From a virus, in IMG/VR virus record IMGVR_UViG_3300025018_000121, positions 27,094 to 91,093 of that record: DNA of 64,000 nucleotides. One strand, written 5' to 3'. Position numbers and translations under genes: made by a program. The notes beneath the pieces were generated by a model that had not been told where the DNA came from, did not search any database, and saw nothing but the letters and a program-made list of their open reading frames with translations. This document shows positions 54,552 to 58,885 of the stretch, piece by piece (within the stretch, counting starts at the first letter, position 1; the number at the start of each line of letters is the position of its first letter).

Positions 54552-54592
54552 TGGCGCGCCCAGCAGGACTCGAACCTGCAACCTACGGCTTA
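54552..54592 (-). pseudogene. 3' half of a split canonical tRNA-Arg gene
   Basis: TAA-GCCGT-AGGTT-GCAGG-TTCGAGT-CCTGC-TGGGCGC-G-CCA; acceptor strand pairs perfectly with 55139-55145. Confidence 0.9.
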
Positions 54593-55030: not shown

Positions 55031-55109
55031 TGGCGGGAGTGGTGGGACTCGAACCCACATTGATCCTATTACGGGACTACAGCTTAGAAGGCTGTTCCGA
55101 TACACCCCC
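55031..55109 (-). tRNA. Non-canonical D-armless tRNA-Arg(UCU)-like gene with long variable arm
   Basis: GGGGGTG/CACTCCC acceptor, TA, TCGGA in place of the D arm, ACAGC-CTTCTAA-GCTGT, 20-nt variable region, GTGGG-TTCGAGT-CCCAC, G-CCA. Confidence 0.8.
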
Positions 55110-55115
55110 TTTTAA

Positions 55116-55145
55116 CGTTGCTCTATCCAATTGAGCTATGGGCGC
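55116..55145 (-). pseudogene. 5' half of the split canonical tRNA-Arg gene
   Basis: GCGCCCA-TA-GCTC-AATTGGATA-GAGC-A-ACG; TGTAAAGTA motif 7 nt upstream. Confidence 0.9.
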
Positions 55146-58649: not shown

Positions 58650-58885
58650 GTACCGGAAACTGTCGGTAACTAGGTGCAGGTCTTATCACCTAAGCCTGAC
58701 TTTTAATACCTTCCGACAGCCTCCTAAGTTTTTTAAATACTTCTGCATATAAGAACCTATAACTCATATTCAGAAGCATGACTTGCCACATCTATAGAAG
58801 TTAGCAAATCTTCTATACCTTGCACGATAGTGGCCGACATGATTTTACGTTACTGATTCCCTCACAAGTTTCTTTCAGCAACGGG
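58650..58885 (-). ncRNA. Candidate structured non-coding RNA (four stem-loop domains)
   Basis: Long intergenic gap almost wholly occupied by paired stems with G-U wobbles on the - strand. Confidence 0.55.

What the first reader, a model, noticed from the sequence alone, without database searches (positions are those of the whole stretch)
55031..55109. D-armless, long-variable-arm tRNA-Arg(UCU)-like RNA
Seen: intact 7-bp acceptor stem, U8-A9, perfect 5-bp anticodon stem with a 7-nt loop, canonical T arm, G discriminator and encoded CCA. The D arm is reduced to UCGGA and the variable region is 20 nt (GUCC/GGAU stem). Established: D-armless tRNAs are best known from animal mitochondria, bacterial tRNA-Arg has a short variable loop, and A20 is an ArgRS identity element. 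Inference: the retained GGA may mimic G18-G19-A20. Intact stems argue for selection, and AGA codons are frequent in this genome. The odd fold might also evade host tRNA-targeting nucleases or act as a decoy. Standard tRNA finders may miss it.
Basis: partly seen in the sequence, partly recalled or inferred. Interest (0 to 1): 0.8.

Follow-up and report, generated by a model that had tools for sequence, protein, structure and literature searches.

The report
Phage arginine tRNA with rewired D-arm
This is a real, strongly conserved phage gene for an arginine tRNA whose D-arm is wired differently from the textbook cloverleaf; here it travels with a homing endonuclease that has split the phage's ordinary tRNA-Arg gene, so it is probably a natural non-cloverleaf tRNA used in bacterial translation.

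Summary
The element is real and lies on the minus strand (55109→55031). It is neither D-armless nor long-variable-armed.

Across 42 distinct homologues from phage contigs, the CGG of "UCGGA" pairs with a CCG 3' of the anticodon arm. This 3-bp helix covaries through six pair types. A D-loop-like tract with invariant GGA follows it. RNAalifold finds this fold unaided.

Every anticodon in the family is Arg (UCU, CCU, ACG). In large phage tRNA arrays the rearranged copies fill Arg slots that canonical genes leave empty. ARAGORN misses every copy, and most cultured-phage records leave it unannotated.

In the window, the tRNA plus an HNH gene sits inside a split canonical tRNA-Arg gene. In Pseudomonas phage PAK_P2 the same kind of cassette exactly replaces the canonical tRNA-Arg(UCU) found in about 100 close relatives.

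Best reading: a functional tRNA-Arg allele linked to a homing endonuclease and probably immune to its cutting. Charging and cleavage specificity are untested. I found no published description. This scan has already reported the family on other genomes.

The parts
55031..55109 (-). Rearranged tRNA-Arg(UCU) gene, 79 nt, with encoded CCA (55033-55031) and discriminator G (55034)
   Evidence: Rfam tRNA 42.1 bits; family model R1 95.9 bits against <=34.9 bits for canonical tRNAs; 78/79 identical to the L066 copy while the adjacent HNH is 70.5% identical
55103..55109 (-). Acceptor stem 5' strand, pairing with 55035-55041
   Evidence: All 7 pairs show compensatory changes across 42 members, 99% of cells paired
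55097..55099 (-). CGG, 5' strand of the long-range 3-bp helix (takes the place of canonical D-stem 23-25; that mapping is inference)
   Evidence: Pairs with 55072-55074; 98.4% paired; pair types CGG/CCG, CAC/GUG, CUC/GAG, ACC/GGU, CGU/GCG in PAK_P2, CCC/GGG in PA11; predicted unaided by RNAalifold
55079..55095 (-). Anticodon arm; anticodon UCU at 55088-55086, loop CUUCUAA
   Evidence: All 5 stem pairs show compensatory changes; U33, C35 and A37 are invariant; family anticodons are UCU 39, ACG 2, CCU 1
55072..55078 (-). Linker AGUC (55078-55075) and CCG (55074-55072), the 3' strand of the long-range helix
   Evidence: Linker is AG(Y/A)N with an invariant G; helix covariation as above
55059..55071 (-). 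D-loop-like tract UAAUAGGAUCAAU, with GGA at 55066-55064 (proposed A14, A15, G18, G19, A20, A21, U48 equivalents; inference)
   Evidence: UAA, GGA and the final AU are invariant or nearly so in 42 members; same GUAAUGGAU motif as the D loop of the canonical JG004 tRNA-Arg(UCU)
55042..55058 (-). T arm, 5 bp plus loop UUCGAGU
   Evidence: 100% of cells paired, 4 of 5 pairs with compensatory changes
55116..55145 (-). 5' part (nt 1 to ~29) of a disrupted canonical tRNA-Arg gene: acceptor strand GCGCCCA and an intact D arm with GGAU
   Evidence: Sequence; A20-type D loop, and anticodon stem start identical to JG004 tRNA-Arg(UCU); not called by ARAGORN or Rfam
55110..55115 (-). TTAAAA junction between the canonical 5' part and the rearranged tRNA
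   Evidence: Sequence; absent from the related cassette in L066
55016..55030 (-). Spacer containing GAGGUG, a ribosome-binding-site-like motif, before the HNH start codon GTG
   Evidence: Sequence; conserved start VKIKLKSP in L066
54590..55015 (-). HNH homing-endonuclease gene, 141 aa (P0001)
   Evidence: Pfam HNH_3 E 1.4e-10; 52% identical to the Pseudomonas phage PA11 HNH, which is also joined to a family member; W/L066 differences by codon position are 33/22/60
54552..54592 (-). 3' part (nt 36-76) of the disrupted canonical tRNA-Arg gene: UAA, GCCGU, AGGUU, T arm, UGGGCGC, G, CCA. The HNH stop codon is its UAA (nt 36-38)
   Evidence: Sequence; acceptor strand complementary to 55145-55139; 31/32 identical to L066

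Best explanation
The element is a gene for an arginine tRNA (anticodon UCU, reading AGA) with a rewired core. After U8-A9 the chain enters a 3-bp helix (CGG) that continues directly into the anticodon arm. After the anticodon arm, a 4-nt linker leads to the other strand of that helix (CCG). Then comes a D-loop-like tract (UAA..GGA..AU) that runs into a normal T arm and acceptor stem. In canonical numbering the segment order is 1-9, then 22-47, then 10-21, then 48-76. All the pieces that build the L-shaped core are kept: U8, A14, A15/U48, G18, G19, A20 and A21. Only the connectivity differs. Shown here: the fold, its conservation, and its restriction to Arg anticodons and to phages. Inferred: that it is processed by RNase P, charged by the host ArgRS through A20, C35, U36 and G73, and used on the ribosome to read the phage's abundant AGA codons. 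In this phage the tRNA and an HNH homing endonuclease form one compact cassette inserted into the anticodon stem-loop of a canonical tRNA-Arg gene. That gene is left as two dead halves lacking nt 30-35. The likely logic is intronless homing: the endonuclease cuts canonical tRNA-Arg genes in naive phage genomes, repair copies in the cassette, and the linked rearranged allele restores tRNA-Arg(UCU) function. The allele would itself be uncuttable because its DNA is in a different order. This last step is inference.
For: Fold: 42 distinct members, 98.9% of cells paired, 18 of 20 pairs with double-sided changes, 0 of 500 shuffles as good, and slid controls at 40-50% paired. RNAalifold gives the same structure unaided. 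A pattern search with no constraint on the long-range helix still gives 42 of 42 paired 3 of 3, and two further pair types occur in PAK_P2 and PA11. Arg identity: anticodons are UCU, CCU and ACG only. C35 is invariant, GGA is present in 42 of 42, position 73 is A or G in 36 of 42, and CCA is encoded in 35 of 42. These match the bacterial Arg identity set A20, C35, U/G36 and A/G73 (PMC9976931). Use as a tRNA: in the 7 arrays with at least 10 canonical tRNAs, none has a canonical gene with the anticodon carried by the rearranged copy. L043 has 22 canonical tRNAs, no canonical Arg, and rearranged UCU and ACG copies. Only 3 of 46 loci duplicate an anticodon. Purifying selection: the W and L066 tRNAs are 78/79 identical, against 70.5% for the adjacent HNH. 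Replacement: PAK_P2 carries the rearranged tRNA-Arg(UCU) plus HNH exactly where JG004 and about 100 other Pakpunavirus records carry the canonical tRNA-Arg(UCU). Promoter and flanks are the same. Cassette: W and L066 both lie inside a split Arg-like canonical gene. PA11 has an Arg-like 5' half, then the HNH, then a rearranged tRNA. HNH genes directly adjoin members in W, L021/L051, SOVA965, Slicko01, L029, PAK_P2, DC31 and L025. AGA makes up 42% of Arg codons in the window.
Against: There is no expression, processing, modification or aminoacylation data for any member. The L-shape mapping is reasoning from known tertiary contacts, not a model or a structure. The key helix is only 3 bp, and 36 of 42 members share one pair type. 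Six of 42 members have U73 and 7 of 42 lack CCA. Three loci carry both a canonical and a rearranged UCU gene. About three quarters of members have no adjacent HNH gene. The adjacent HNH genes belong to at least two or three families and lie on either side, so the linkage may partly reflect the general density of homing endonucleases in phage tRNA islands; I did not measure a background rate. The cleavage specificity of the HNH is unknown. No empty-site relative of W's own phage was found.
Confidence: 0.72

Rival explanations
1. It is a tRNA-shaped RNA that is not used for decoding. It could be a decoy or sponge for a host tRNA-targeting nuclease or another tRNA-binding defence protein, or a processing signal for the HNH mRNA.
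For: The architecture is odd and phage-restricted: 51 viral loci against 5 MAG contigs among 185,579 species genomes. Phage tRNAs are known to counter tRNA-cleaving defences (titles and abstracts of PMC10264068 and PMC11555353). In W it precedes the HNH ORF by 15 nt, so RNase P and 3' processing would free that mRNA.
Against: A decoy would not need three different Arg anticodons, complementarity with the canonical Arg genes in large arrays, an encoded CCA, A/G73 and A20. Nor would it be expected to replace the canonical gene exactly, as in PAK_P2. Most members are not next to an ORF.
Confidence: 0.12
2. It is a D-armless tRNA with a long variable arm: a UCGGA connector and a GUCC/GGAU variable hairpin, resembling mitochondrial D-armless tRNAs.
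For: This is the minimum-free-energy fold of the W sequence alone. The Rfam alignment also treats the region as a D-arm deletion plus a variable-region insertion.
Against: Across the family the hairpin pairs in 54% of cells with no compensatory change. The competing CGG/CCG helix covaries. The tract holding GGAU is conserved in sequence like a D loop, not as a helix.
Confidence: 0.04
3. It is a decaying pseudogene or a recombination scar, left by endonuclease-driven rearrangement in the tRNA island and without function.
For: It sits among tRNA fragments and a homing endonuclease gene. Broken members exist: L006 has lost its 5' part to an ORF, and L037 is cut after the T loop.
Against: There are 42 distinct intact members with compensatory changes in every helix. 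W and L066 are 98.7% identical in the tRNA beside a 70.5% identical gene. Members occur in viable cultured phages of several genera.
Confidence: 0.02
4. The whole unit is an intron-like insertion, and the flanking canonical halves are still used, either as a split tRNA or rejoined after the inner tRNA is excised by RNase P and 3' processing.
For: Between W and L066 the halves keep complementarity through compensatory changes (7-66 A-U against G-C; D-stem 11-24). The 3' half is 31/32 identical, far better conserved than the HNH gene.
Against: Nucleotides 30-35, including the anticodon, are missing from the halves. The junctions differ between W and L066. In PAK_P2 the canonical gene is simply gone. 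The differences between halves can be explained by separate homing events into different canonical alleles.
Confidence: 0.03

Closest known systems
Canonical phage and bacterial tRNA-Arg(UCU), for example the annotated gene of Pseudomonas phage JG004 (NC_019450, 23036-23107; L064 1483-1554)
   Same: Same anticodon loop CUUCUAA, same T arm and 7-bp acceptor stem, same GUAAUGGAU D-loop motif with A20, A/G73 and CCA. It occupies the same genomic slot in Pakpunaviruses.
   Different: In the canonical gene the D arm is a hairpin between nt 9 and 26. Here the two D-stem strands flank the anticodon arm and the D-loop tract lies between the second strand and the T arm. ARAGORN does not detect it, and the family model R1 separates the two classes by more than 14 bits.
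D-armless mitochondrial tRNAs (mammalian mt-tRNA-Ser(AGY), Ascaris mt-tRNA-Ser(UCU); PMC7609411)
   Same: There is no D hairpin between the acceptor stem and the anticodon arm, and a short connector follows nt 8-9. Some of these also carry a UCU anticodon.
   Different: Those tRNAs truly lack D-stem and D-loop elements and have flexible, reduced cores, often with short T arms. This family keeps a covarying D-stem equivalent, a conserved D-loop-like tract with GGA, and a fully canonical T arm. It occurs in phages of bacteria.
Class II tRNAs with a long variable arm (Leu, Ser, bacterial Tyr)
   Same: About 20 nt lie between the anticodon arm and the T arm. One member is annotated tRNA-Ser in Alishewanella phage Slicko01.
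   Different: There is no variable-arm hairpin, there is no canonical D arm, and all anticodons are Arg.
Circularly permuted tRNA genes of the red alga Cyanidioschyzon merolae (recalled from my own knowledge; not checked here)
   Same: The order of tRNA segments in the gene departs from the canonical order.
   Different: As I recall, in that case the whole gene is permuted at its termini and the mature tRNA becomes a normal cloverleaf after processing through a circular intermediate. Here the termini are normal and the rearrangement is internal, so it would persist in the mature RNA.
Free-standing homing endonucleases in phage tRNA regions, and intronless homing (T4 SegB, PMC2330249; T6 SegB, PMC13096335)
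   Same: A small endonuclease gene sits in a tRNA cluster, is present or absent among close relatives, and is transferred together with flanking tRNA sequence (abstracts; PAK_P2 against JG004).
   Different: SegB is a GIY-YIG enzyme lying between intact tRNA genes. Here HNH enzymes are joined to a structurally rearranged replacement allele of the gene that is destroyed or displaced.

Membership tests
tRNA (Rfam RF00005) | Score at or above the family's gathering threshold | tested here: met
   42.1 bits against 29, full model span 1-71
tRNA (canonical cloverleaf) | 7-bp acceptor stem, 5-bp anticodon stem with a 7-nt loop and U33, 5-bp T stem with a UUCRANU loop | tested here: met
   All present in W and maintained by compensatory changes in 42 members
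tRNA (canonical cloverleaf) | D-arm hairpin between nt 9 and nt 26 | tested here: not met
   Only 5 nt separate A9 from the anticodon stem. The D-stem equivalent is formed with a triplet 3' of the anticodon arm. ARAGORN fails on every member tested.
Bacterial tRNA-Arg (ArgRS substrate) | Identity set A20, C35, U/G36 and A/G73 (PMC9976931) | tested here: inconclusive
   At sequence level W has C35, U36, G73 and an invariant GGA that could present A20. Whether A20 sits where ArgRS can read it depends on the 3D fold.
Bacterial tRNA-Arg (ArgRS substrate) | Aminoacylation with arginine and decoding of AGA | not testable with these tools
   Indirect support only: Arg-only anticodons, complementarity in tRNA arrays, and replacement of the canonical gene in PAK_P2
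Mitochondrial-type D-armless tRNA | An unpaired D-replacement connector with no D-stem or D-loop equivalents | tested here: not met
   The connector triplet is paired and covaries, and a D-loop-like tract is conserved
Class II (long variable arm) tRNA | A base-paired variable arm | tested here: not met
   The proposed stem is 54% paired with 0 compensatory changes
Homing-endonuclease cassette (intronless homing) | Endonuclease gene with an HNH catalytic domain | tested here: met
   Pfam HNH_3 E 1.4e-10 for P0001; HNH_3 also in the neighbours of four other lineages
Homing-endonuclease cassette (intronless homing) | Presence/absence polymorphism at one site among close relatives, with precise boundaries | tested here: met
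   Shown for PAK_P2 against JG004 and about 100 Pakpunavirus records. Not shown for W's own lineage, for which no empty-site relative is held. L066 carries the same insertion.
Homing-endonuclease cassette (intronless homing) | The enzyme cuts the cassette-free allele and spares the linked allele | not testable with these tools
   Needs a cleavage assay or mixed infections

The most novel reading that the evidence does not exclude
Bacterial ribosomes and ArgRS routinely use a natural tRNA that is not a cloverleaf. Its topology was selected because reordering the gene's segments makes the DNA unrecognisable to homing endonucleases (or other sequence-specific nucleases) that target canonical tRNA-Arg genes. 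The RNA, meanwhile, still folds into the same L shape. On this reading a selfish-gene conflict at the DNA level created a new tRNA architecture, and the endonuclease plus its immune allele acts as a natural cut-and-replace gene drive among phages.
Probability: 0.4. Interest if true: 0.92.

Novelty: new variant of a known kind. Interest (0 to 1): 0.82.

Why it matters
All tRNAs known to work in bacterial translation are cloverleaves, and the catalogued exceptions are mitochondrial or Sec/Pyl-type variants (PMC7609411). A widespread phage family that keeps every core tertiary element but connects them in a different order would matter in several ways:

- **tRNA folding.** It would show that the L shape tolerates a change of chain topology. 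It would also give structural biologists and tRNA engineers a natural scaffold that is probably still read by ArgRS through A20.
- **Annotation.** ARAGORN missed every copy tested here. Most cultured-phage records checked leave it unannotated, including the therapeutic-candidate phage PAK_P2, and one names it tRNA-Ser. Phage tRNA inventories and codon-compensation analyses are therefore systematically short of tRNA-Arg.
- **Selfish-element biology.** The cassette would be a third way for a homing endonuclease to avoid harming its host, besides self-splicing introns and inteins: it carries a replacement copy of the gene it destroys.

Tried and rejected
Tested on the family alignment and rejected.
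- **Group I intron in the tRNA.** Rejected. The insert holds only 79 nt of RNA plus a 141-aa ORF, Rfam finds nothing but tRNA, and nt 30-35 of the host tRNA are missing.
- **Prophage attachment-site remnant.** Rejected. There is no integrase, the record is a lytic-type phage contig, and the inner element is a complete tRNA rather than a duplicated 3' end.
- **The split canonical gene being tRNA-Met or tRNA-Ile(CAU).** This was suggested by BLAST hits to T4-like phages. Rejected because the D loop has A20 and the anticodon stem equals that of JG004 tRNA-Arg, unlike PG7's CAU tRNA.
- **Empty-site relatives of W's phage.** Searches with both flanking proteins found nothing.
- **Bias check on the long-range helix.** My first family pattern required the pairing. 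Repeating it without that requirement gave the same 42 members.
- **Promoter and terminator scan around the cassette.** No minus-strand signal above chance, so it is probably co-transcribed with its operon.
- **Literature.** Seven full-text searches and two reviews gave no description of this architecture. Subscription-only papers are not covered.
- **Not attempted.** No 3D modelling of the RNA (no tool is available), no background rate of HNH genes next to canonical tRNAs, and no wide search for homologues of the HNH protein.

Full report
**1. The observation**

The element lies on the minus strand, 55109→55031. The Rfam tRNA model matches at 42.1 bits (gathering 29) by deleting the D arm and inserting 17 nt before the T arm. 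ARAGORN finds only a tRNA-Leu(UAA) in the window. The window comes from a 91-kb IMG/VR phage record, about 37% complete, whose only two tRNA-model hits are these two genes. AGA makes up 42% of Arg codons in a 36.5% GC window.

**2. The surroundings**

Read on the minus strand, the order is:
- nt 1 to ~29 of an ordinary tRNA gene (55145-55116: acceptor strand GCGCCCA and an intact D arm with GGAU);
- TTAAAA;
- the 79-nt element;
- a 15-nt spacer containing GAGGUG;
- a 141-aa ORF starting at GTG 55015;
- nt 36-76 of the ordinary tRNA (54592-54552), whose acceptor strand UGGGCGC is complementary to the 5' part.

The ORF's stop codon is the UAA of the old anticodon loop. The ORF is an HNH_3 endonuclease (E 1.4e-10). 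The split gene is Arg-like: it has an A20-type D loop, and its anticodon stem ACG(GC)/GCCGU is identical to that of the annotated tRNA-Arg(UCU) of phage JG004. It is unlike the CAU tRNA of phage PG7, which shares only the T arm. Nucleotides 30-35, including the anticodon, are gone, so this gene is dead. A separate first-reader note on this window describes the same cassette.

**3. A family**

BLAST found related unannotated or mis-annotated elements in Stenotrophomonas phage SOVA965, Agrobacterium phage Atu_ph04 and Alishewanella phages, where the element is annotated tRNA-Ser. Two motif scans of IMG/VR gave 13 and 51 loci. A structural pattern recovered 42 distinct sequences. A covariance model built from them scores members at 49.5 bits or more and canonical tRNAs at 34.9 bits or less.

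Cultured phages carrying unannotated copies include Pseudomonas phages PAK_P2, JG003, phiPsa397 and five P. putida phages, plus Limnohabitans phage DC31 and Pseudomonas phage PA11. Among 185,579 prokaryotic species genomes the family signature occurs 5 times. All five are MAG contigs, and four of them carry tRNA islands of 6 to 20 canonical tRNAs in the stretch held.

**4. The fold**

The triplet inside the "D remnant" changes together with a triplet 3' of the anticodon arm. The pair types are CGG/CCG (36 members), CAC/GUG (3), CUC/GAG (2) and ACC/GGU (1), plus CGU/GCG in PAK_P2 and CCC/GGG in PA11.

On the 42-sequence alignment, the structure with four helices (acceptor, long-range, anticodon, T) pairs 98.9% of cells:
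- 18 of 20 pairs carry double-sided changes.
- No shuffle out of 500 reaches this.
- Slid controls pair 40-50% of cells.

A pattern search with no constraint on the long-range helix gives the same 42 members, all paired 3 of 3. RNAalifold predicts exactly this structure unaided.

The tract after the second strand is conserved in sequence: UAA, 1-2 nt, GGA, 2-4 nt, AU. It matches the D-loop motif GUAAUGGAU of canonical phage tRNA-Arg.

**5. Reading the fold (inference from textbook tRNA tertiary contacts)**

The segments appear in the order 1-9 | 22-26, anticodon arm, 44-47 | 10-21 | 48-76. On this mapping:
- the invariant U8, the UAA (13, A14, A15) and the GGA (G18, G19, A20) are retained;
- so are the final A-U (A21, U48, the latter a Levitt partner of A15) and the invariant linker G (G45);
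- the three new joins (9→22, 47→10, 21→48) connect residues that are neighbours in the L-shaped fold.

The RNA is therefore better described as having a re-threaded D arm than as armless.

**6. Function**

All anticodons in the family are arginine (UCU, CCU, ACG). L036 carries all three in tandem, and L068 carries UCU plus CCU. C35 is invariant, position 36 is U or G, position 73 is A or G in 36 of 42, and CCA is encoded in 35 of 42. This is the bacterial Arg identity set, of which A20 is the strongest determinant for E. coli ArgRS (PMC9976931).

In the seven loci with at least 10 canonical tRNAs, none has a canonical gene with the anticodon supplied by the rearranged copy. L043 has 22 canonical tRNAs and no canonical Arg at all. 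Only 3 of 46 loci duplicate an anticodon. The W and L066 copies are 78/79 identical, while the adjoining HNH gene is 70.5% identical with differences concentrated at third codon positions. I conclude, with about 0.75 probability, that these are working tRNA-Arg genes. No expression or charging data exist.

**7. Link to homing endonucleases**

PAK_P2 and JG004 have identical flanks and the same TTGACA/TATAGT promoter. Between the promoter and tRNA-Lys, JG004 and about 100 other Pakpunavirus records have a canonical tRNA-Arg(UCU). PAK_P2 has the rearranged tRNA-Arg(UCU), then 14 nt, then an HNH gene whose last codons overlap the intact tRNA-Lys.

L066, a 184-kb MAG contig, has W's cassette in a split Arg-like gene, but with different junctions and an unrelated upstream flank. 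PA11, which encodes the closest relative of W's HNH (52% identity), has an Arg-like 5' half, then the HNH, then a rearranged tRNA. There the ORF stops at the UAA of the rearranged tRNA's anticodon loop. HNH genes also abut members in L021/L051, SOVA965, Slicko01, L029, DC31 and L025. L037 shows the reverse outcome: a broken rearranged copy beside an intact canonical tRNA-Arg(UCU).

The most economical model is intronless homing with a linked, functionally equivalent allele that is presumably resistant to cleavage. Caveats:
- most members have no adjacent HNH gene;
- several HNH families are involved;
- I did not measure how often canonical tRNAs in these islands adjoin HNH genes;
- cleavage specificity is unknown.

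**8. Novelty**

Seven full-text searches, the 2020 review of non-canonical tRNAs and the 2023 tRNA identity review gave no description of this architecture. The library does not cover most subscription journals.

Earlier follow-up reports of this scan, on at least eight other genomes, describe the same "rewired" or "swapped D-arm" phage tRNA-Arg family and its HNH cassettes. I saw those notes only after reaching the same reading. They are AI notes, not independent evidence.

I class this as a new variant of a known kind: a tRNA with a new chain topology.

Noticed in passing
window 54552-54592 and 55116-55145; L066 3120-3860: The dead canonical halves are better conserved between W and L066 than expected for relics. 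The 3' half is 31/32 identical, against 70.5% for the HNH gene. The differences in stems are compensatory (7-66 A-U against G-C; D-stem 11-24). Possible reasons are separate homing events into different canonical alleles, selection on the flanks as homology arms, or a role of the 3' minihelix at the end of the HNH mRNA.
   Followed up: partly
window 54590-54592; L017 about 1953-1955; L062 about 1950: In three cassettes the HNH ORF ends inside a tRNA. In W it ends at the UAA (nt 36-38) of the split canonical gene. In PA11 it ends at the UAA of the rearranged tRNA's anticodon loop. In PAK_P2 it ends within the 5' end of tRNA-Lys. The packing is very tight, so tRNA processing would cut these mRNAs.
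   Followed up: no
L004 12287-12362; L005 1998-2073; L014 1986-2061: ARAGORN calls a 'tRNA-Pyl' with anticodon CUA, an amber-suppressor-type tRNA, in the phage lineage that also carries a rearranged tRNA-Arg. This may point to stop-codon recoding in those phages.
   Followed up: no
L014 about 670-1420, compared with L005 about 1440: An insertion of about 790 bp lies between the rearranged tRNA and tRNA-Leu in L014 and L004 but is absent from L005. It encodes a different endonuclease-like protein that appears to be interrupted by a stop codon. This is another mobile element in the same tRNA island.
   Followed up: no
L061 5311-5641: ARAGORN reports a tmRNA gene (tag AQQQKALIT*) inside a phage tRNA array of 19 canonical tRNAs.
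   Followed up: no
L006 4632-4710; L037 3201-3276; L025 3449-3540; L069 2948-3039: These are variant or damaged family members. L006 has its 5' part replaced by the end of an HNH-like ORF. L037 is cut after the T loop and is followed by a canonical tRNA-Arg(UCU). L025 and L069 have 10-13-nt insertions in the linker or the D-loop-like tract.
   Followed up: partly
L001 1510-1588 (Alishewanella phage Slicko01, OQ508956): This family member is annotated tRNA-Ser in GenBank. Its anticodon stem has only 3 clean pairs and its acceptor stem has a U.U at 6-67. The same U.U recurs in L009 and L011, so it may be a subfamily trait.
   Followed up: no
window 58650-58885: A first-reader note flags a possible structured RNA in an ORF-free gap near the tRNA-Leu gene. 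I did not examine it.
   Followed up: no
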